A DNA stretch of 64,000 nucleotides from a virus. Its lineage: Duplodnaviria > Caudoviricetes. Where the stretch lies: the IMG/VR virus record IMGVR_UViG_2615840613_000003, positions 1-64,000 of that record; one strand, given 5' to 3'. The notes under the pieces were generated by a model. The model saw nothing but the letters and a program-made list of their open reading frames with translations. It did not search any database and was not told the origin of the DNA. Below are positions 54,098 through 64,000 of this stretch, piece after piece (position 1 is the first letter of the stretch; every line of letters starts with the position of its first letter). The position numbers and the translations under genes are program-made.

Positions 54098-54606
54098 TGC
54101 CAGGAACAAAGAGAAAGACTGACGCTGCGCCATGGCAACCGGGCAACCGCGATGCGGCGGAAGCGAGCGTGGTCACGCAGCTTGCAGCGCTGAAGCGAAT
54201 GACGGTGGTCGAGCTGAAGGCGAAGTGGGAAAGCCTCTTCGGCACCCCCGCTCCGAACAACAGCCGCAGTTACCTCGAGCTGAGGCTCGGCTACCGGGTC
54301 CAGGAACTGACCCTCGGCGGCCTGTCCCGCGAGACGCGGCGGACGCTGGACCTGCTGGCCGACGAAATCGAGGGCCGGGTTGGGCGCAAGACGATCATCG
54401 CGGATTCCCGCAACCCGGTGGTCGGCACCCGCCTCGTGCGCGAATGGAACGGGATGGAGCACACCGTCACGGTGATGAAGGACGGCTTCGACTGGCAGGG
54501 GCGCAAGTTCAAGTCGCTGTCGGCGGTGGCGCGGGCGATCACCGGCACGCAGTGGAACGGCTACCGCTTCTTCGGCCTCCGCGAGGCGCGGAGGGACGAC
54601 CGATGA
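54094..54606 (+). CDS. DUF2924 protein
   Basis: ELKAKWESLFG...LGYRVQEL..GGL...GTRLVREWNG...SLSAVARAITGTQWNGYRFFGL. Confidence 0.88.
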   Translation: MMPGTKRKTDAAPWQPGNRDAAEASVVTQLAALKRMTVVELKAKWESLFGTPAPNNSRSYLELRLGYRVQELTLGGLSRETRRTLDLLADEIEGRVGRKTIIADSRNPVVGTRLVREWNGMEHTVTVMKDGFDWQGRKFKSLSAVARAITGTQWNGYRFFGLREARRDDR

Positions 54607-55937
54607 ACCGTCAGGAAGCCGTCGCTATCATGCCGCGCCGCCAGCGCTGCGCCATCTATACCCGAAAGTCGAGCGAGGAAGGGCTCGACATGGAGTTCAA
54701 CAGCCTCGACGCCCAGCGCGAGGCTTGCGAGGCCTTCGTGACGAGCCAGAAGGCGGAAGGCTGGGCCACCATTCGCGAACGCTACGACGATGGCGGCTTC
54801 TCCGGTGGCACGCTGGAACGGCCCAGCCTGAAGCGTCTCATTCAGGACGTCGAAGCCGGTCTGATCGATGTGATCGTGGTCTACAAGATCGACCGGCTGT
54901 CGCGCTCGCTGATGGACTTCGCCAAACTGGTCGAGATCTTCGACCGCAATCAGGTGACCTTCGTGTCGGTCACGCAGTCGTTCAACACCACGACCTCGAT
55001 GGGCCGCCTGACCCTGAACATCCTCCTCAGCTTCGCACAGTTCGAGCGGGAGGTGATCGGCGAGCGCATCCGCGACAAGGTCGCGGCATCCCGCAGGCGC
55101 GGCATGTGGATGGGCGGTCACGTCCCGCTGGGCTACGACGTGCGCGACCGCAAGCTGGTCGTCAACGAAGCGGAAGCCGCGACGGTCCGGATGATCTTCG
55201 AGCGCTTCGTCGCCATCGGCTCCGCCACGACGCTGGCCAAAGCGCTCGCGGCCGAGGGCGTTCTGAACAAGCGCGGCAAGCCGATCGACAAGGGCTTCCT
55301 CTACAAACTGATCAACAACCGGGTCTACCTCGGAGAAGCCGTGCACAAGGGGACTTCCTATCCCGGCGAGCACGAGGCCATCATCGATCAGGCCCTCTGG
55401 GACAAGGTTCACAGCATCCTGCAGGAGAGCCCGCGCCTGCGGGCGAAGAACACCCGCCGCCAGACGCCGGCCCTGCTGAAGGGGATCATCTTCACCGAGA
55501 CGGGCACGGCGATGACGCCGACGGCGACGAAGAAGGGCACGCGCCTCTACCGCTACTATGCGTCGATGGACCTGATCCGAAACCGCCCGACCGGAGACGC
55601 CTCAGGGCCGCTGCGCTTGCCCGCCGGCATGGTCGAGGATGCCGTCGTCGGCGAAATCCGCCGCATGATCCGCGCACCCGAAGTCGCGGCGCGGACCATA
55701 AAGGCCCTTCGCGACGAGAACTCGACCGTCGAAGAGAAGGCGGTCGTCCAGGCGCTCGGCGAGTTCGACCAGCTCTGGGCGGCGCTCTATCCGGCGGAGC
55801 AAACCCGCATCGTCCAGCTTCTGGTCGAGCGGGTGACCGTCGGCGAAGACGGCATTGCCGTCGATCTGCGCCACGACGGGCTGGGCTCGGTCCTGTATGA
55901 CATGATGGCCCCCCGCCAGACGGAGGCCCGCGCATGA
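54603..55937 (+). CDS. Large serine recombinase (integrase candidate)
   Basis: CAIYTRKSS (catalytic Ser), DDGGFSGG, VYKIDRLSRS, FAQFERE and a recombinase domain. Confidence 0.93.
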   Translation: MNRQEAVAIMPRRQRCAIYTRKSSEEGLDMEFNSLDAQREACEAFVTSQKAEGWATIRERYDDGGFSGGTLERPSLKRLIQDVEAGLIDVIVVYKIDRLSRSLMDFAKLVEIFDRNQVTFVSVTQSFNTTTSMGRLTLNILLSFAQFEREVIGERIRDKVAASRRRGMWMGGHVPLGYDVRDRKLVVNEAEAATVRMIFERFVAIGSATTLAKALAAEGVLNKRGKPIDKGFLYKLINNRVYLGEAVHKGTSYPGEHEAIIDQALWDKVHSILQESPRLRAKNTRRQTPALLKGIIFTETGTAMTPTATKKGTRLYRYYASMDLIRNRPTGDASGPLRLPAGMVEDAVVGEIRRMIRAPEVAARTIKALRDENSTVEEKAVVQALGEFDQLWAALYPAEQTRIVQLLVERVTVGEDGIAVDLRHDGLGSVLYDMMAPRQTEARA

Positions 55938-56336: not shown

Positions 56337-57173
56337 TCAATGGAAGCCTGCCACGAATGCTGTGGCCGTGAGTGTGACGTGGGCATTGAGCGGCGGATAC
56401 AGTTCGAAGGCCCTCGGCTCACGCGAGAAGTTCCAAAGCCGGAACAAGCGCCATTCGGATCGGCGCTCGTCTGCCACCGCAAGCTCATTGCGGGTGATGT
56501 GGAAGGGCGTCCGTTCCCACCCGTTCGTCGTCTTCACCTCGATCAAGCGCGCCTGACCATCTGGCGCGAAACTCGCGATGTCATAGCCTGCGCCATCCCC
56601 GTCCTCCTCGGAAACCCAACGCACCTTCCGCGCCAAGTCATCACGCCCCGCCGACCGTAGCGATGCCCACTCATGCGCCAGAACGCGCTCCTCGCCGGCG
56701 CGGCCGAGGGCGCGGTTGCGCTCGTCCCGGCCTGCCACATCGAACTTCCGAGCGATGTGCAGCATCTGCTCCAGCTCCTGCGGTGGCGGCTGGTTCGACA
56801 GCGTCGGGGGTGGGCCGATCCAGATCGGTGCGGATTCTTCAAGACCCGTCGCCGGGCGCGAGTCTGGCAGACGGCCGAGCCACGCGGGGTTTATTGCCAA
56901 CCACCGTACCACCGCGTCGACGAGCGACATTTGGAAATTGAACGCAGGCTTGTAGCCGGGGATCCAGTCCTCGCCGAGCCCCTTCAGAACCGCGCTGATG
57001 TTCTGGTGCTTGAACTCGATCGATCCCTCCGAACGGCCGTTCAGCAACGGCAGGAGCGTGCGGCGATGCTCCGCCTTGCTGTACGGGCGTCCGAAGACGT
57101 CGTCGGCCAGCATCGCGAAGTAATCCGCGACGATCAGATCGTTCTCCTCATCGGTCCAAGGCTCGCTCGACAT
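56337..57173 (-). CDS. DUF3883 (NO VEIN C-terminal) PD-(D/E)XK nuclease
   Basis: GRAGEERV, GAGYDIASF, LIEVKTT and FHITRNE. Confidence 0.82.
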   Translation of the reverse strand: MSSEPWTDEENDLIVADYFAMLADDVFGRPYSKAEHRRTLLPLLNGRSEGSIEFKHQNISAVLKGLGEDWIPGYKPAFNFQMSLVDAVVRWLAINPAWLGRLPDSRPATGLEESAPIWIGPPPTLSNQPPPQELEQMLHIARKFDVAGRDERNRALGRAGEERVLAHEWASLRSAGRDDLARKVRWVSEEDGDGAGYDIASFAPDGQARLIEVKTTNGWERTPFHITRNELAVADERRSEWRLFRLWNFSREPRAFELYPPLNAHVTLTATAFVAGFH

Positions 57174-58235: not shown

Positions 58236-58436
58236 ATGATGGCGGATACGCCTGACCAGGCCATGACCGTAAGGGACGTGGCAGGTTACCTGAACGTCGA
58301 CGAGAAGACCGTTTACAGGCTCGCCAAGCGCGGGGATCTGCCGGGCTTTAAGGTCGCCGGTGCATGGCGGTTTAAGCGGTCGGACCTCGATAGCTGGATC
58401 GATCAGCAGAAAAAAGCAGCGCAGAACAAGGCGTGA
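58236..58436 (+). CDS. HTH_17/MerR-like regulator heading the RM operon (Mad1-like)
   Basis: MTVRDVAGYLNVDEKTVYRLAKRGDLPGFKVAGAWRF; 10 bp before hsdM. Confidence 0.85.
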   Translation: MMADTPDQAMTVRDVAGYLNVDEKTVYRLAKRGDLPGFKVAGAWRFKRSDLDSWIDQQKKAAQNKA

Positions 58437-58446
58437 GGGGCGGCAC

Positions 58447-60579
58447 GTGAGCGATTTGAATATCAGCAACTTCATCTGGAATATTGCCGACGATGTCCTT
58501 CGAGACGTTTACGTCCGGGGGAAGTACCGAGATGTCATTCTGCCCATGACCGTTATTCGTCGTCTCGATGCTGTGCTGGAGCCGACGAAGGAAGCGGTGC
58601 TCTCCATGAAGACCCAGCTCGATAAGGCGGGGGTCGCGAACCAGCATGCCGCTCTGTGCCAAGCATCGGGAGAGGCATTTTACAACACATCTCAGTTCCG
58701 CCTGCGCGATTTGACCTCCAGAGCGCGACGGCAGCAGCTTAAGGCCGATTTCGAGGCGTACCTCGACGGATTCTCGCCGAACGTTCAGGAAGTGCTGGAT
58801 AAGTTCAAGTTCCGCAATCAGATTCCCACGCTCGTCGAAGCAGATGTCCTCGGTTTCCTGCTCGAAAAATTTCTGGACCCCTCAGTTAACCTGAGCCCAA
58901 AGCCGGTCCTCCACCAGGACGGGAGCGTCCGGCTTCCCGGCCTCGACAACCATTCTATGGGCACGATCTTCGAGGAGCTCATCCGCCGCTTCAACGAAGA
59001 GAACAATGAGGAGGCAGGCGAGCACTTCACGCCGCGCGACGTGGTAGAGCTCATGGCCTACCTCATCTTCATGCCGATCGCCGACCATATCCGGTCGGGC
59101 ACATACCTCGTGTACGACGGCGCTTGCGGCACGGGCGGCATGCTCACTGTCGCCGAAGAGACACTGATTAAGCTGGCAACCGACCACGGGAAGGAAGTTT
59201 CCGTTCACCTCTACGGACAAGAAGTCAACCCGGAAACATTCGCCATCAGCAAGGCCGACCTGATCCTGAAGGGAGAAGGCGTTGAGGCCGAAAACATGAA
59301 ATTCGGATCTACGTTGTCAGCGGATGCGTTCCCGTCCCGCGAGTTCGACTTCATGCTTTCCAATCCCCCCTACGGCAAGTCTTGGAAGACCGACTTGGAG
59401 CGCATGGGGGGGAAAAAAGAACTGCGTGACCCTCGCTTCGTGATCGAGCACGGAGGCGATCCTGAGTTCAGCCTGATCACCCGATCCAGCGATGGCCAGA
59501 TGGTGTTCCTGGCCAACATGCTCAGCAAGATGAAGAAGGCGTCTCCCCTCGGGAGCCGGATCGCCGAGGTCCATAACGGGTCCTCGCTTTTCACGGGAGA
59601 TGCGGGTTCCGGTGAAAGCAACGTCCGCCGCTGGATCATCGAAAACGACTGGCTCGAGGCCATCATCGCCCTGCCGCTGAACATCTTTTACAACACTGGC
59701 ATCGCAACCTACATCTGGGTCTTGAGCAATCGCAAGGCCGAGAACCGCAAGGGCAAGGTGCAGCTCATTGACGCCACCGCTTGGTTCAAGCCGCTCCGTA
59801 AAAATCTCGGGAAAAAGAACTGCGAACTCGGCGTTGACGATATCAAGCGCATCTGTGACGCGTTCCTCCTACAGAAGGAAGACGAGACGTCCAAAGTCTT
59901 CCCAAACGATGCGTTCGGCTATTGGAAGATCACAGTCGAGCGTCCCTTGCGCTTGAAGACGGAGCTGACGGAAGGAGCCTTACGGCGATTCCGCAAGACG
60001 TGCTCCGAAGCGGGAGAAAGCGATCTCGTCCGCGCCATCGAGGCGGTGGCGGAAGCCCGTGGTCCGGGCCCGCATTTGGACTTCAATGCCTTCGTTGCCG
60101 AGGTGGAGGACGCCGCCAGCTCGCTTGGCCTCCGTATGACGGCCAAGCGGCAGAAGCTGCTCATGTCGGCGCTCGGCCAGAAAGATGCCGCAGCGGAACC
60201 GGTGATCCGCAAAACCTCGAAGCCGAAGGCGGGGTCGGATGCGACGCAGGAAGCGCTGTATGGCAGCTATCACACGACGGTCGGCGGCAAAGCGTCGGTC
60301 GTGGAGTATGAGCCTGACACCGAGCTCAGGGATACCGAACAGGTACCGTTCCTCGAAGACGGCGGCATCGAAGCCTTCTTCCGGCGCGAGGTATTGCCGC
60401 ATGCCCCCGACGCTTGGATCGACGCCTCGAAAACGGTGATTGGTTACGAAATTTCGTTCACGCGGCATTTCTACAAGCCGCAGCCGCTGCGCACACTCGA
60501 TGAAATCGAGGCCGATATCCGAGCGCTGGAGAAAGAGACGGAGGGCTTGCTCGAAGACGTCCTCATGGGAGGGCACTAA
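58447..60579 (+). CDS. hsdM: Type I restriction-modification methyltransferase subunit M
   Basis: [37 protein letters not shown] and [11 protein letters not shown] start with SD GAGGGG. Confidence 0.93.
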
Positions 60580-60581
60580 GA

Positions 60582-62378
60582 ATGGCCACCCAGCGCTACT
60601 CCGTCACTCCCCATCCGATCGAAACGCTTCTGACTTGGGTGAAGTCCGGTGAGATTGCGATACCCGAGATCCAGCGTCCGTTCGTGTGGGATGCGACGAA
60701 GGTCCGGAACCTGCTTGACTCCCTCTATCAGGGCTATCCGGTCGGATACCTCATCGCCTGGCGAAATCCATCCGTCCGGTTGAAGGACGGTACGACATCG
60801 TCCGGCAAGCGCATCCTGATCGACGGGCAGCAGCGCGTGACGGCGCTGATGGCGGCGCTGCTCGGACAAGAGGTTCTGACCAAGGACTACGAGACCGTCC
60901 GAATCAGGATCGCATTCCATCCGGTTGATGAGCGGTTCGAGGTTTCGAACCCCGCGATCCGCAAGGACGCCGCCTGGATTCCCGATCTCGCGGCGGTCTT
61001 TTCGCCGGATGCCAGCCTCACCGAGCTGACAGACGAGTATTCCGAACGTAACCCCAATGCCGACCGCAAGCAGGTCTCGCGCATCCTGGAACGCGTCCGG
61101 AAGATCATCAACAACCACGTCGGCATCATCGAGCTGGCCGAAGACCTCGATATCGAAACCGTGACCGAGATCTTCATCCGCGTGAACTCGGCCGGTGCGT
61201 CGCTTAGCCAGGCGGACTTCGCCATGTCGAAGATCGCGGCCAACGACACCTACGGCGGCAACATGCTGCGCAAGGCTATCGACTATTTCTGCCATCTGGC
61301 CGTCGCGCCCGAGTTCCTCTCGCGCATCGAGAAGGGCGACAAGGCGTTCGCCTCCTCCGAGTTCCTTCCGAAAATGCGGTGGCTGAAGGACGTCAACGAC
61401 GACCTCTACGACCCTTCCTACACCGACATGCTGCGCGTGGCATTCACGTCCGAGTTCCGGCGCGGCAAGCTGCAGGATCTCGTGGCTTTGCTATCAGGGC
61501 GGAACTTCGAGACCAAGCAGTATGAGGAAGCCGTCGCCGAGGAGGCGTTCGCCCGCCTGAAGACCGGCGTTCTCAACTTCATCAACAAGACTCACTTCGA
61601 TCGTCTGACGATGATCCTGCGCTCGGCCGGGTTCGTCACTTCGAATCTCATCCGCAGCCAGAATGCCATTAACTTCGCCTACATCCTCTACCTGCGCGGC
61701 CGGGCGGAGGGCATGCCGGCCGCCGACATCGAGCGGCTGGTGCGGCGCTGGTATGTCATGTCGCTGTTGCGGGGACGTTACTCCGGCAGCCCCGAGACGG
61801 CATTCGATTTCGACATCCGACAGATTGAGGCGCGCGGCCTTGCGACCTATTGCGAGGCGGTGATCGATGCGGAGCTTCCCGAGAGCTTCTGGTCCACTCT
61901 GCTCCCGCAGGAGATGGATACCTCCTCGGCGTCGAGCCCCTACTTCCTCGTCTACCAGGCCGCGCAGGTGAAGTTGGGAGACCTCGGCTTCCTGTCGCGG
62001 GATATCACCGTGCGCGACCTGCTGCTGAACCGCAGCGACGTGCATCACGTCTACCCGCGCAATCACCTTAAAAAACAGGGCATGGCGCGCGGGCGGTATA
62101 ACCAGATCGCCAATTTCGTGCTTGCGCAAAGCGAGATCAACATCGGCATCGGCGACCGGCCCCCGGAGGTCTATTTCGCCGAGCTGGCAGGCCAATGCAA
62201 CGGCGGGGCGAAGAAATACGGCGGCATCACGGACATGGCCGAGATGCGGGCCAACCTCCGCATGAGCTGTCTGCCTGAAACCCTGCTCGATGGGGAAATT
62301 CCCGATTTCGGTGACTTCCTCGAGGCGCGCCGGAAGCTGATGGCAGCGAAGATCAAGACGTACTTCGAAGGGCTTTGA
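60582..62378 (+). CDS. DUF262 (GmrSD-like) protein with C-terminal HNH-like motif
   Basis: [17 protein letters not shown] and IFIRVNS (DUF262); DVHHVYP...NQIAN...N. Confidence 0.85.
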
Positions 62379-62419: not shown

Positions 62420-63454
62420 ATGGCTGAGCAGGACGATCTCATCGCGTCCATCGCAGCGACGACGGCCGACTATCGTGAGGCTGATGGGGAAGCCCCGACG
62501 CCAGAGCGTATCGAGCGTTGGGTCGGTCAGTTCGACGCGGCAGTTCAGCTGCCCATTCTACGGGAAATGGATCACGTCTTGAAGCGGACCTACTTCTCCC
62601 GCGATGGAACGAGAAAGTTTTTGGCGGGACTATTTCAGACCGAAAAGCTTGTCGGCGAGGATCCATGTGCCTTCTGGAAGGGCGTGAAGTTCCTCGACAT
62701 TCAGGGCGGCGGCGCGAGCCAGAAGGAGATGCTCGCGCTGTTCAGCAAGGTGCTGGAGAAGCAGTGTCGGTTCGAAGCTGCCGACTGCGGCGCAGCTCCC
62801 CACGCCTTCGTGTATCTGGATGACGCCATCTTCACCGGGAACCGTGTTAGGCGCGATCTCGAAACATGGATCGCTGAGCAGGCTCCGGCCGAAGCGAAGG
62901 TGCACGTCATCACGATCGCGCTGCATAGCGGCGGCCAGTACTACGCCAATGGAAAAATCAAGGAGGCGGCAAGGGCCGCCGGAAAGTCAATCGACCTGAC
63001 GTGGTGGCGCGCGATTGAGCTTGAGGACCGCAGGGCTCACACCACTACGTCCGATGTTCTACGGCCGGTCGCGATTCCAGACGACGAGGGCGTGAAAGCC
63101 TATGTCGGGGCAATGCGCTATCAGCCCAATCTGCGCACTGCGGGCCATGTCGGCGGAAACGGTATCTTCTCCAGCGATGCTGGACGCCAGCTACTGGAAT
63201 CGGAGTTCCTGAAGGCGGGCGTGCGCATCCGGCAGATGTGCCCGCATCTAAACCAGTACCAGCGGCCGCTGGGCAACATGATCCTTGAAACGCTCGGTTT
63301 CGGCTCGCTGATCGTAACCTTCAGAAACTGCCCCAACAATGCGCCGCTGGCGCTGTGGGCGGGGGACCCTTGGTACCCGCTCTTCCCCCGCACAACGAAC
63401 AGCGATACGTCGCTGCGCAGGTTCATGGCGATGCTGGCACAGGAAGACTTCTGA
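62420..63454 (+). CDS. Phosphoribosyltransferase-fold protein (PRTase-CE-like)
   Basis: PRPP-loop-like FVYLDDAIFTGNRV and C-terminal FRNCPNN; SD GGGGGAG. Confidence 0.7.
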   Translation: MAEQDDLIASIAATTADYREADGEAPTPERIERWVGQFDAAVQLPILREMDHVLKRTYFSRDGTRKFLAGLFQTEKLVGEDPCAFWKGVKFLDIQGGGASQKEMLALFSKVLEKQCRFEAADCGAAPHAFVYLDDAIFTGNRVRRDLETWIAEQAPAEAKVHVITIALHSGGQYYANGKIKEAARAAGKSIDLTWWRAIELEDRRAHTTTSDVLRPVAIPDDEGVKAYVGAMRYQPNLRTAGHVGGNGIFSSDAGRQLLESEFLKAGVRIRQMCPHLNQYQRPLGNMILETLGFGSLIVTFRNCPNNAPLALWAGDPWYPLFPRTTNSDTSLRRFMAMLAQEDF

Positions 63455-64000
63455 TGGCCCAGCCCAGCCAGGTTCGCACATACCACCCAGCCGAGAGCGC
63501 CGTCTTCCTTAAGACGAACGAGCGCTTTGGCGGGCTGTCGAACATGGCGCCGGGCTTCCCGATTGTCCTGAACGGCGTGCGGATCCGCACGTCGGAGGCG
63601 CTCTACCAGGCCTGCCGTTTCCCGCGCCGGCCGGACGTCCAGCGGCAGATCATCGACGACCCCAGCCCAATGACCGCAAAGATGCGGAGCAAGCCGTTCC
63701 GCTCCGACACTCGGCCGGACTGGGATGCGGTGCGGGTGAAGATCATGCGCTGGTGCCTGCGCGTGAAACTGGCGCAGAACTGGCAGACCTTCGGCAAGCT
63801 GCTGCTGTCCACCGCGGACATGCCGATTGTCGAGAAGAAGGTCCGCCGCAAGGACTTCTGGGGCGCCACGGAGCAGCCGGACGGCACGCTCGTCGGCATG
63901 AACGTGCTGGGTCGCCTGCTGATGGAGCTGCGCGAGCAGCTGAAGGGCGATGAGGCGGAGAGCCTACGGTTTATCGAGCCGCTGGCCATTCCCGACTTCC
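63454..64000 (+). CDS. NADAR (YbiA-like) N-glycosidase, truncated by the window end
   Basis: Hand translation from the TGATG overlap: GGLSNM...TSEALYQACRF...RPDWDAVRVKIMRWCLRVKLAQN...LLLST...IVE...DFWG...GMNVLGRLLMELRE. Confidence 0.88.
   Translation, partial: MAQPSQVRTYHPAESAVFLKTNERFGGLSNMAPGFPIVLNGVRIRTSEALYQACRFPRRPDVQRQIIDDPSPMTAKMRSKPFRSDTRPDWDAVRVKIMRWCLRVKLAQNWQTFGKLLLSTADMPIVEKKVRRKDFWGATEQPDGTLVGMNVLGRLLMELREQLKGDEAESLRFIEPLAIPDF

What the first reader, a model, noticed from the sequence alone, without database searches (positions are those of the whole stretch)
62420..64000. PRTase-fold + NADAR pair inside a type I RM operon: candidate writer/eraser defence or TA system
Seen: a 344-aa protein with a PRPP-binding-loop-like motif (YLDDAIFTGNR) whose stop overlaps the start of a NADAR gene (TGATG). 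The NADAR gene is absent from the ORF track because it runs off the window. Both follow hsdM and DUF262 with minimal gaps. Known: NADARs cleave N-glycosidic ribose bonds (YbiA on riboflavin intermediates; the NADAR antitoxin of DarT1 on ADP-ribosyl-guanine), and PRTases form N-ribosyl-phosphate bonds. Inference: the PRTase phosphoribosylates a nucleotide, nucleic acid or protein as a toxin or anti-phage effector and NADAR reverses it, as a DarTG1-like pair with PRTase in place of the ART. It may back up the RM system against anti-restriction phages. I know of no described PRTase-NADAR system.
Basis: partly seen in the sequence, partly recalled or inferred. Interest (0 to 1): 0.85.

Follow-up and report, generated by a model that had tools for sequence, protein, structure and literature searches.

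The report
Known PRTase–NADAR defence pair fused to HsdS
The two genes are a copy of an anti-phage pair already described in E. coli (DS-32), but here the second gene is joined in one reading frame to the DNA-recognition subunit of a restriction enzyme, which hints that the pair works on DNA.

Summary
A 344-aa phosphoribosyltransferase-fold gene (62420-63454) ends in TGATG with the start of a NADAR gene, behind hsdM and a DUF262 gene.

The pair is not undescribed. Both proteins pass the NCBIfam equivalog cut-offs for DS32_1 and DS32_2, the two genes of DS-32. DS-32 is listed among the validated anti-phage systems of the DefensePredictor work (bioRxiv 2025, Science 2026). Its authors also compare it to DarTG with a swapped toxin.

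Three points go beyond the papers I could search:
- **Fusion to HsdS.** The NADAR gene does not stop near the window's end. It runs on as one 717-aa ORF: NADAR, a disordered linker, then HsdS. hsdR follows. This fusion recurs in 13 of 16 genome loci and at least 42 of 80 metagenome loci.
- **A second fusion partner.** In another clade the same NADAR is fused to the DUF1156 DNA methyltransferase of an Hma system.
- **A tail motif.** 64 of 90 DS-32-type NADAR tails carry Q-x-x-[L/M]-F, the beta-clamp-binding consensus. None of 20 other NADARs does.

Best reading: a PRPP-dependent writer and an N-glycosidase eraser that act on DNA. This mechanism is inferred, not shown.

The parts
58360..60579 (+). 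hsdM, type I R-M methyltransferase subunit. The GTG at 58360 is the first possible start; the true start may lie up to about 100 nt later.
   Evidence: Pfam N6_Mtase 1.1e-51 and HsdM_N 8.2e-24. PADLOC MTase_I PDLC03029 846 bits, matching from residue 34.
60582..62378 (+). DUF262 / GmrSD_N-type gene nested in the operon. It is an optional extra defence-type cassette.
   Evidence: Pfam GmrSD_N 9.5e-30. PADLOC HEC-05 2.8e-33. Present in 9 of 16 related genome loci.
62420..63454 (+). DS-32A-type PRTase, 344 aa. The PRPP loop FVYLDDAIFTGNR is at 62807-62845. The CPNNAP motif is at 63329-63346.
   Evidence: NF053875 424.4 bits against a cut-off of 250. PF24390 covers the whole model. AlphaFold model pLDDT 97.1. 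Best structural matches are type I PRTases: UPRT 1i5e Z 9.0, rmsd 3.2, 123 residues aligned.
62560..63300 (+). Hypervariable core of the PRTase gene, roughly residues 110-245.
   Evidence: DNA identity falls to 53-79% here. The rest of the operon, apart from the HsdS recognition domains, is about 85-100% identical to L017 and L034. Protein identity is 77%.
63454..64000 (+). First 182 codons (NADAR domain) of the 717-aa NADAR::HsdS fusion ORF. The ORF continues on the contig to 65607. The linker is residues 203-254, with QPSLF at residues 221-225 (contig 64114-64128). HsdS starts at about residue 256.
   Evidence: NF053876 274.5 bits against a cut-off of 240, model 1-181 at residues 8-189. Pfam NADAR plus Methylase_S with 2 stretches. 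In the model the linker has pLDDT below 50. hsdR follows at contig 65600-68566, with an 8-nt overlap.

Best explanation
**Shown.** The pair is a member of the DS-32 anti-phage family: a PRTase-CE-type phosphoribosyltransferase followed by a dedicated NADAR N-glycosidase. It is built into a type I restriction-modification operon in the order hsdM, DUF262, PRTase, NADAR::hsdS, hsdR. The NADAR is the N-terminal domain of the specificity subunit HsdS. A disordered linker of about 50 residues joins the two and carries a conserved QPSLF motif.

**Inferred.** The PRTase uses PRPP to put a 5-phosphoribosyl group on a base nitrogen, most likely in replicating DNA. This blocks replication of the phage, and of the cell if it goes unchecked. 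The NADAR hydrolyses that N-ribosyl bond and so acts as eraser or antitoxin, as the NADAR partner of DarT1 does for ADP-ribosyl-guanine. The eraser is brought to DNA by a clamp-binding-type tail. In this clade it is also part of the methyltransferase/restriction complex.

My odds:
- Membership of DS-32: about 0.95.
- Writer/eraser (toxin-antitoxin-like) logic: about 0.55.
- DNA rather than a free nucleotide as the substrate: about 0.4.
For: **Identity**
- Both proteins pass the NCBIfam equivalog cut-offs.
- The PRTase has the type I PRTase fold.
- Its PRPP-loop residues D134 and D135 and the motif R302-N303-C304-P305-N306..P309 are conserved. The latter matches the PNNxP motif described for retron type III-A PRTases (PMC12746101, passage).

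**Obligate pairing**
- NADAR is adjacent in 16 of 16 genome loci, 78 of 80 metagenome loci and 4 of 4 plasmid relatives.
- Both families pass their cut-offs in the same 3 of 401 genomes.
- One 540-aa protein is a single-chain PRTase-NADAR fusion (P0250).
- One HsdS carries a scar showing that both genes were deleted together (P0016).
- In L012 the pair sits between two identical IS5-family transposase ORFs.

**Pointers to DNA**
- The NADAR is fused to HsdS in 13 of 16 genome loci and in 42 complete ORFs of 80 metagenome loci.
- Nearly all of the best 120 homologues have both domains.
- In another clade it is fused to a DUF1156 DNA methyltransferase (5 complete ORFs and 1 cut ORF).
- Q-x-x-[L/M]-F occurs in 64 of 90 tails. 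Shuffled tails give a mean of 0.66 and a maximum of 4. None of 20 other NADARs has it.
- L224 and F225 are invariant and Q221 is at least 90% conserved inside an otherwise variable linker.
- The motif equals the clamp-binding consensus QL[S/D]LF or QxxLF (PMC12309361 introduction).

**Chemistry**
- Known NADARs cut ribosyl-N bonds. Examples are ADP-ribosyl-guanine and riboflavin intermediates (PMC11543638 passages).
- The closest solved relative by sequence is YbiA, at 2.9e-15.
Against: - No activity of any DS-32 protein is reported in the text I could read. Supplements are closed.
- The two defence PRTases with reported biochemistry act on metabolism, not on DNA. ShosT disrupts purine metabolism (PMC11961720 abstract). 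The Retron-Eco11 effector lowers PRPP (PMC12746101).
- The NADAR is nearer in sequence to YbiA, a small-molecule enzyme. No DarT1-associated NADAR chain was matched at E up to 1.
- The lysine that pairs with the catalytic glutamate in E. coli C7 NADAR appears to be an invariant arginine here (R55). I aligned only to YbiA, not to C7 NADAR.
- The tail motif could bind the PRTase or some other partner instead of the clamp. The 90 tails are related sequences, so the count overstates independence.
- The DUF1156 fusions have only weak versions of the motif or none.
- Stand-alone forms lack any R-M partner, and such forms are what was validated in E. coli. R-M is therefore not needed for the basic function.
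Confidence: 0.5

Rival explanations
1. Metabolic effector. On infection the PRTase consumes PRPP or makes an aberrant nucleotide, as in ShosT and Retron-Eco11. The NADAR acts on that small molecule. It either detoxifies it in uninfected cells, or it works as a co-effector that closes a futile cycle (PRPP plus base gives a nucleotide, which is split back into base plus ribose-5-phosphate) and drains PRPP.
For: - The PRTase belongs to the same Pfam family (PF24390). PADLOC hits are only to the retron PRTase_III-A models, over the PNNxP region.
- PRPP depletion is reported for the Retron-Eco11 effector. Purine disruption is reported for ShosT (abstract only).
- The NADAR is closest to YbiA, an N-glycosidase of riboflavin-pathway intermediates.
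- A single-chain PRTase-NADAR protein exists, which suits two enzymes acting in sequence.
Against: - An enzyme of small molecules has no evident need to be tethered to HsdS or to a DNA methyltransferase, and this happened twice.
- It has no evident need for a conserved clamp-binding-type motif that other NADARs lack.
Confidence: 0.3
2. Guard of the restriction system, with PrrC-like logic. In this clade the NADAR, as part of the HsdM2-HsdS complex, keeps the PRTase silent. A phage anti-restriction protein that binds or disables the complex removes this check and triggers abortive infection. This concerns the trigger only, so it can hold together with either chemistry.
For: - The pair is nested inside two different methylation-based systems. 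These are type I R-M, and Hma between HmaA and HmaB.
- In both, the NADAR is fused to the DNA-recognition or methylation protein.
- The PRTase core varies like a recognition cassette between otherwise near-identical operons.
Against: - Stand-alone pairs exist in an E. coli prophage and on plasmids of Klebsiella, Vibrio, Bacillus and Methylobacterium. The validated system is a two-gene unit. Sensing therefore cannot depend on R-M in general.
- No binding data exist. The complex predictor was not available for this window.
Confidence: 0.25
3. The fusion has no mechanistic meaning. A two-gene toxin-antitoxin-like cassette inserted between hsdM and hsdS, lost a stop codon once, and the arrangement spread by horizontal transfer. 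At most it acts as an addiction module that stabilises the R-M island.
For: - HsdS fusions fall mostly in one well-supported PRTase clade (76 rows, SH-aLRT 98, quick tree). Few fusion events are therefore needed.
- Plain HsdS proteins 78-89% identical to the HsdS part exist without NADAR.
- The cassette can be lost cleanly (P0016).
Against: - The frame is kept open through a linker that varies in length and sequence in all complete cases. ORF lengths are 692-719 aa in genomes and 664-735 aa in metagenomes.
- There is no conserved internal start codon. The Met after the motif is absent in L018-L021.
- A second, unrelated fusion partner that also acts on DNA exists.
Confidence: 0.2

Closest known systems
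DS-32 (DS-32A PRTase + DS-32B NADAR), DefensePredictor study; NCBIfam NF053875 / NF053876
   Same: Same two families above the equivalog cut-offs, same gene order, overlapping or abutting genes.
   Different: - The NCBIfam NADAR model is 181 positions long. The E. coli relative I examined is a stand-alone 203-aa protein in a lambdoid prophage.
- Here the NADAR is the N-terminal domain of HsdS inside a type I R-M operon.
- The PRTase is only 29% identical to that E. coli relative.
DarTG1 (DarT1 ADP-ribosyltransferase + NADAR antitoxin)
   Same: A NADAR protein encoded right after an enzyme that makes an N-ribosyl bond, so writer/eraser logic is plausible. The DS-32 authors note structural similarity between DS-32B and the NADAR partner of DarT.
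   Different: - The writer has a PRTase fold, not an ART fold.
- The donor would be PRPP, not NAD+.
- No DarT family match was found in the genome, but the control genomes were silent too.
- The NADAR is closer in sequence to YbiA.
Retron type III-A PRTase effectors (for example Retron-Eco11) and ShosT
   Same: Same Pfam family PRTase-CE, a PRPP loop and the PNNxP motif. All are defence effectors.
   Different: - No reverse transcriptase, ncRNA or winged-helix tail here.
- The partner is a NADAR, not a retron or a DprA-like ShosA.
PrrC / EcoprrI (an anticodon nuclease gene nested in a type I R-M operon); recalled from my own knowledge, not from a call
   Same: A second, potentially suicidal defence module sits inside a type I R-M operon and is physically tied to the R-M proteins.
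   Different: - No homology to PrrC.
- The tie here is a covalent fusion of the presumed antidote to HsdS.
- Activation by anti-restriction factors is untested.

Membership tests
DS-32 anti-phage system | PRTase-like protein above the NF053875 equivalog cut-off | tested here: met
   424.4 bits against 250, model 1-322 of 322.
DS-32 anti-phage system | NADAR protein above the NF053876 equivalog cut-off | tested here: met
   269.5 bits for the in-window part and 274.5 bits for the whole ORF, against 240.
DS-32 anti-phage system | The two genes are adjacent, on the same strand, PRTase first | tested here: met
   TGATG overlap. The same order holds in all relatives examined.
DS-32 anti-phage system | Protects against phage | not testable with these tools
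   The preprint lists the E. coli system as validated. No data exist for this copy.
Type I phosphoribosyltransferase fold | PRTase core fold and a PRPP-binding loop with two acidic residues | tested here: met
   VIA-align gives UPRT 1i5e Z 9.0 (rmsd 3.2, 123 aligned) and 1vst Z 8.9 (rmsd 2.9, 126 aligned). 23 of the top 24 rows are PRTase-fold proteins. D134 and D135 are at least 90% conserved. Z values near 8-9 are only moderately above background, as the tool's own note says.
Retron type III-A PRTase effector | Encoded next to a retron reverse transcriptase and ncRNA | tested here: not met
   The neighbours are hsdM, DUF262, hsdS and hsdR. No RT domain appeared among the ORFs scanned.
Retron type III-A PRTase effector | PNNxP motif | tested here: met
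   C304-P305-N306-N307-A308-P309, with P309 invariant and C304, P305 and N306 at least 90% conserved. The motif is taken from PMC12746101.
DarTG toxin-antitoxin | DarT (ART-fold) toxin as the partner of the NADAR or macrodomain | tested here: not met
   The partner gene is PRTase-CE only. The genome-wide search for PF14487 found nothing, but the controls were silent, so absence from the genome is inconclusive.
DarTG toxin-antitoxin | NADAR catalytic residues (E88, K95, D171 of E. coli C7 NADAR) | tested here: inconclusive
   E48 is invariant. Seven residues on there is an invariant R55 where YbiA has K. E127 and D134 are invariant. No alignment to C7 NADAR itself was made.
Type I restriction-modification system | HsdM, HsdS (two recognition domains) and HsdR encoded together | tested here: met
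   HsdS has 2 Methylase_S stretches. HsdR has HSDR_N, SWI2_SNF2 and ResIII.
Beta-clamp-binding proteins | Q-x-x-L-F pentapeptide in a disordered region or at a terminus | tested here: met
   QPSLF at residues 221-225 lies in a linker with pLDDT below 50. Relatives end in QLSLF, QGDLF or QSLSLF.
Beta-clamp-binding proteins | Binds DnaN | not testable with these tools

The most novel reading that the evidence does not exclude
DS-32 is a reversible DNA phosphoribosylation system, in which PRPP takes the role that NAD+ has in DarTG. The NADAR eraser rides on the replisome through a beta-clamp-binding tail. In this clade it also rides on the type I methyltransferase/restriction complex, and elsewhere on an Hma methyltransferase. 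Host DNA would be kept clean while incoming phage DNA stays modified. Alternatively, an attack on the R-M complex would unleash the writer. Either way, this would be a new DNA base modification and a new way of coupling a suicide module to self/non-self marking.
Probability: 0.2. Interest if true: 0.85.

Novelty: new variant of a known kind. Interest (0 to 1): 0.55.

Why it matters
- The mechanism of DS-32 is not given in the text I could read.
- The two natural fusions and the tail motif are free experiments by evolution. They place the NADAR on DNA-recognition and DNA-methylation proteins and give it a clamp-binding-type tail. This turns 'PRTase plus NADAR, mechanism unknown' into a sharp, testable claim: a phosphoribosyl adduct on DNA that NADAR removes.
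- The finding adds a case of defence systems merged at the protein level with restriction-modification.
- It shows a PRTase core that varies like a specificity cassette.

Tried and rejected
- **Complex prediction.** Binding between the two proteins, or to DnaN, is therefore untested.
- **Foldseek against PDB.** It gave only weak hits, and the top rows (plant PEP carboxylases, TM about 0.2) are spurious. I replaced it with VIA-align wide.
- **Sequence search of solved structures.** The PRTase found nothing meaningful, best E 0.24.
- **Phage collection.** No match to the PRTase.
- **DarT search in the own genome.** Nothing found, but the control genomes were silent, so this shows little.
- **Non-DS-32 NADAR control.** My first regular expression recognised only 5 of 20 ORFs. 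I replaced it with a coordinate-based reading of all 20.
- **Tree.** The careful search did not finish in 300 s. The tree quoted is the quick one, rooted at the midpoint only.
- **Not a real gene pair.** Rejected because of the depth of conservation.
- **A separately translated hsdS.** Rejected as the general case, because no start codon is conserved in the linker. GTG or TTG starts were not examined.
- **Literature.** Searches 'NADAR'+'HsdS', 'NADAR'+'type I restriction' and 'NADAR'+'PRTase' listed no paper whose title, or whose passages where I read them, describes the fusion. The DS-32 preprint's main text has no 'clamp', 'DnaN' or 'type I restriction'. Supplements and subscription journals could not be searched.
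Full report
**What is there**

The ORF at 62420-63454 (+) encodes 344 aa (P0001). Its TGA stop shares one base with the ATG at 63454.

The PRTase:
- It matches Pfam PF24390 (PRTase-CE) over the whole model at 2.2e-58.
- It matches NCBIfam NF053875, 'DS32_1_antiphage, phosphoribosyltransferase-like anti-phage protein', at 424.4 bits against a cut-off of 250.
- PADLOC lists only the retron PRTase_III-A models, over residues 269-331.

The downstream frame:
- It matches Pfam NADAR at 6.6e-22.
- It matches NF053876, 'DS32_2_antiphage, NADAR family anti-phage protein', at 269.5 bits against 240.

Upstream lie hsdM (PADLOC MTase_I, 846 bits) and a GmrSD_N/DUF262 gene (PADLOC HEC-05, 2.8e-33). The gaps between genes are 2 nt and 41 nt.

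**The pair is already described**

A full-text search for 'DS-32' and 'NADAR' found the DefensePredictor preprint. I read the passages. [quoted passage not shown] DS-32B is structurally similar to the NADAR partner of DarT, while DS-32A is unlike DarT. The authors suggest 'TA partner swapping'.

The Science version (PMC13092281) mentions NADAR and PRTase only briefly, and without the DS numbers, in the passages I saw. Its mechanistic idea matches what those authors hint at. I could not see supplements, which may hold phage panels or mutants for DS-32.

**Beyond the window: the NADAR is part of HsdS**

The window is contig C12:1-64000 of a 90,209-nt contig. The NADAR frame stays open to 65607 and gives 717 aa (P0003). 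Its parts are:

| Residues | Content | Evidence |
|---|---|---|
| 8-189 | All 181 positions of NF053876, 274.5 bits | |
| about 190-255 | Proline-rich stretch | |
| about 256 to the end | HsdS with two Methylase_S stretches | |

hsdR (HSDR_N, SWI2_SNF2, ResIII) follows at 65600-68566 with an 8-nt overlap.

An AlphaFold model of the fusion has mean pLDDT 76.8. HsdS is confident, mostly above 85. The NADAR domain is middling. Residues 203-254 are below 50, which points to a flexible linker.

**The fusion is not a local accident**

- The best 120 homologues of the 717-aa protein are almost all about 700 aa long and carry both PF08719 and PF01420. They come from Paracoccus, Sinorhizobium, Mesorhizobium, Bradyrhizobium, Accumulibacter, and Myxococcota and Chloroflexi MAGs.
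- Of 16 genome loci found through the PRTase (62-99% identity), all have the NADAR start overlapping or abutting the PRTase stop (TGATG or TAATG).
- In 13 of the 16 the NADAR runs on into HsdS as one ORF of 692-719 aa, flanked by hsdM. hsdR is detected in 12 of the 16.
- The three exceptions are two short contigs (L008, L014) and L012. In L012 the pair sits between two identical IS5-family transposase ORFs, and the NADAR ends at 252 aa inside the linker.
- The linker varies in length and sequence but never holds a stop. The Met after the motif is missing in L018-L021. The fusion protein is therefore the likely source of HsdS.
- Plain HsdS proteins 78-89% identical to the HsdS part exist without NADAR.
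- One protein (P0016) begins with a PRTase-like N-terminus joined straight to the distal linker. This is a scar of the whole cassette being deleted.

**A wider sample**

A metagenome scan with an alignment of 81 PRTases found 392 relatives, of which the best 80 were kept (56-97% identity). A NADAR lies directly downstream in 78 of them. The other two contigs end within 70 nt of the PRTase stop.

| Class of NADAR ORF | Loci | Notes |
|---|---|---|
| Complete NADAR::HsdS fusion | 42 | 664-735 aa |
| Long fusion | 5 | 1197-1253 aa |
| Stand-alone | 12 | 206-264 aa |
| Runs off the contig | 16 | 2 have an HsdS hit; 1 (L098) has at least 1431 aa open |
| Odd | 3 | one, L047, is a 691-aa fusion that my frame walk missed |
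| No room on the contig | 2 | |

The long ORFs are NADAR plus DUF1156 plus N6-methyltransferase. An SNF2-NOV_C helicase gene lies upstream.

In genome G094 the unfused version of this arrangement sits between genes that PADLOC names HmaA, HmaB and HmaC. The NADAR stop overlaps the HmaB start.

So the same NADAR has been joined to the DNA-recognition or DNA-methylation protein of two different methylation-based systems.

**Pairing is strict over deep divergence**

- Plasmid relatives at 30-49% identity all have a 'NADAR family protein' gene next to the PRTase and no R-M genes. I examined 4 of the 7 records hit: Methylobacterium, Klebsiella, Vibrio and Bacillus cereus. The B. cereus copy lies beside Gabija.
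- An E. coli relative (PRTase 29% identical) sits in a lambdoid prophage between replication protein P and ybcN/ninE. It is 1 examined of 62 E. coli genomes, out of 5426, that matched the Klebsiella query over its NADAR part only.
- In a sample of 401 genomes of the phylum, NF053875 and NF053876 pass their cut-offs in the same three genomes (G000, G094, G182). The 31 other genomes with NADAR hits score at most 107 bits.
- One 540-aa protein is a single-chain PRTase-NADAR fusion.

**Anatomy of the PRTase**

- With 81 sequences the model has pLDDT 97.1 and pTM 0.93.
- VIA-align against about 48,000 chains puts uracil, xanthine-guanine, hypoxanthine-guanine and orotate PRTases, PyrR and PRPP synthetases on top. 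The best are 1i5e (Z 9.0, rmsd 3.2, 123 aligned) and 1vst (Z 8.9, rmsd 2.9, 126 aligned). The matches span residues about 53-309.
- The tool notes that Z 8-9 is only moderately above background. I rely on the consistency of the list and on the motif.
- Conserved residues include Y132, D134, D135 and G140 (PRPP loop), R239, R256 and E260. They also include G293-F294-G295, R302-N303-C304-P305-N306, P309 and W313.
- The last block matches the PNNxP motif that PMC12746101 gives as typical of retron-associated PRTases.

**Anatomy of the NADAR and its tail**

- The closest solved relative by sequence is E. coli YbiA (2b3w, 2.9e-15).
- E48 is invariant. Seven residues further on there is an invariant arginine (R55) where YbiA has lysine. 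E127, D134 and W136 are invariant.
- PMC11543638 names E88, K95 and D171 as the catalytic residues of E. coli C7 NADAR. I did not align to that protein.
- After the NADAR core comes a conserved segment (P176, F182, L183, L184, P188, I189), then a variable tail.
- In 62 fusion proteins the only conserved island in that tail is P220-Q221-P222-S223-L224-F225, with L224 and F225 invariant.
- Across 90 tails from all loci, 64 contain Q-x-x-[L/M]-F, in 15 spellings. Shuffled tails give a mean of 0.66 and a maximum of 4 in 1000 shuffles.
- In stand-alone proteins the motif can be the very C-terminus. Examples are QLSLF in L045 and L050 and QGDLF in L088. The E. coli prophage protein ends in QSLSLF, and the B. 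cereus protein ends in NLSLFD.
- The 26 misses include cut ORFs and near-variants. The DUF1156 fusions have RDLF, QDLF, GELF or nothing recognisable.
- As a control, none of 20 NADARs below the DS-32 cut-off from the same genome sample has the motif, and most end 0-8 residues after the core.
- The tails are related by descent, so these counts show conservation and specificity, not independent events.
- The motif equals the bacterial sliding-clamp-binding consensus, 'QL[S/D]LF or more generally QxxLF', in which positions 1, 4 and 5 matter most (PMC12309361, introduction).

**Variation**

The operons of L017 (Sphingopyxis) and L034 are about 85-100% identical to the window's in DNA (mostly 95% or more), except in two blocks:
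- the HsdS recognition domains, as expected for type I systems;
- the core of the PRTase gene, about 62560-63300, at 53-79% DNA identity.

The protein is 77% identical, and the changes lie in residues about 110-245. The first 60 residues have only 3 changes and the last 70 have 1. The PRTase core thus behaves like an exchangeable cassette. That could reflect target or trigger specificity, or escape from phage inhibitors. This is an inference.

**Tree**

A quick IQ-TREE of 101 PRTases gives the following:
- 55 of the 58 HsdS-fusion loci fall in one clade of 76 rows (SH-aLRT 98).
- Five of the six DUF1156-fusion loci fall in a neighbouring group of 13 rows (support 89); the sixth, L089, sits in a small separate group.
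- The plasmid and E. coli stand-alone forms sit on deep, long branches.

The root is the midpoint only, and the careful search did not finish. 'Stand-alone first, fusions later' is therefore a tentative order. Some stand-alone forms inside the HsdS clade keep a fragment of the hsdM 3' end upstream (L048-L052), which fits secondary excision.

**How it most likely works**

Shown: membership of DS-32, the obligate pairing, the PRTase fold with an intact PRPP loop, the NADAR with its conserved glutamate, the two fusions and the tail motif.

Inferred: the PRTase makes an N-(5-phosphoribosyl) bond and the NADAR breaks it. I favour DNA as the target, at odds of about 0.4, for two reasons:
- The eraser is tied to DNA-recognition and DNA-methylation proteins in two separate settings.
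- It carries a clamp-binding-type motif that other NADARs lack.

The main rival has odds of about 0.3. In it the enzyme perturbs PRPP or nucleotide pools, as reported for the Retron-Eco11 effector and ShosT (abstract), and the NADAR acts on the small-molecule product.

A separate question is whether the R-M complex controls the module in this clade, in a PrrC-like guard arrangement (PrrC is recalled, not from a call). I put that at about 0.25. It is compatible with either chemistry.

**Surroundings**

- A large serine recombinase gene (54606-55937), a NOV_C-domain gene (56337-57173, minus strand) and an HTH_17 gene (58236-58436) precede the operon.
- Gene-transfer-agent-like tail genes follow hsdR (Phage-tail_3 plus Rcc01698_C, and Phage_BR0599).
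- Neither family of the pair was found in 13 genomes of the same family that were searched.
- This fits a mobile island.

**Verdict**

The pair is a known kind (DS-32), so the claim of an undescribed system falls. The copy here belongs to a widespread variant that I could not find described, in which the NADAR is fused to HsdS. The fusion and the tail motif give the first sequence-based pointers to where the system acts.

Noticed in passing
60582-62378: A GmrSD_N/DUF262 gene (PADLOC HEC-05-like) is nested between hsdM and the PRTase. It is present in 9 of 16 related genome loci and absent in the rest, so it is a third, optional defence-type cassette in the same operon.
   Followed up: partly
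62560-63300: The PRTase core is a hypervariable block (53-79% DNA identity). The surrounding operon, apart from the HsdS recognition domains, is about 85-100% identical to L017 and L034. This resembles the exchange of HsdS recognition domains.
   Followed up: partly
P0016 (homologue; corresponds to contig 62420-64140): A 518-aa HsdS begins with a PRTase-like N-terminus of about 18 residues joined to the distal linker. This looks like a natural in-frame deletion of the whole PRTase-NADAR cassette.
   Followed up: partly
L012:9114-12545: In Thermaurantiacus tibetensis the PRTase and a NADAR cut at 252 aa lie between two identical IS5-family transposase ORFs, with no R-M genes nearby. This resembles a composite transposon.
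   Followed up: partly
P0250: A 540-aa protein has PRTase-CE and NADAR in one chain. It could be a true fusion or a sequencing frameshift at the overlapping stop/start. Other long forms carry N-terminal Sel1 repeats (P0298) or unassigned extensions.
   Followed up: no
contig C12 65512-65604 (residues 687-717 of the fusion): HsdS ends in a disordered, strongly acidic tail whose residues D706, E711 and D714 are at least 90% conserved in 62 fusions. Its role is unknown.
   Followed up: no
56337-57173 (-) and L022:2901-6479: A NOV_C (DUF3883-type) domain gene lies upstream of the operon in the window. The same domain ends the HmaA-like helicase that precedes the pair in the Hma-embedded relatives.
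   Followed up: no
54606-55937; contig C12 70344-77657: A large serine recombinase lies upstream, and gene-transfer-agent-like tail genes (Phage-tail_3 plus Rcc01698_C, Phage_BR0599) lie downstream of the R-M island. The island borders were not mapped.
   Followed up: no
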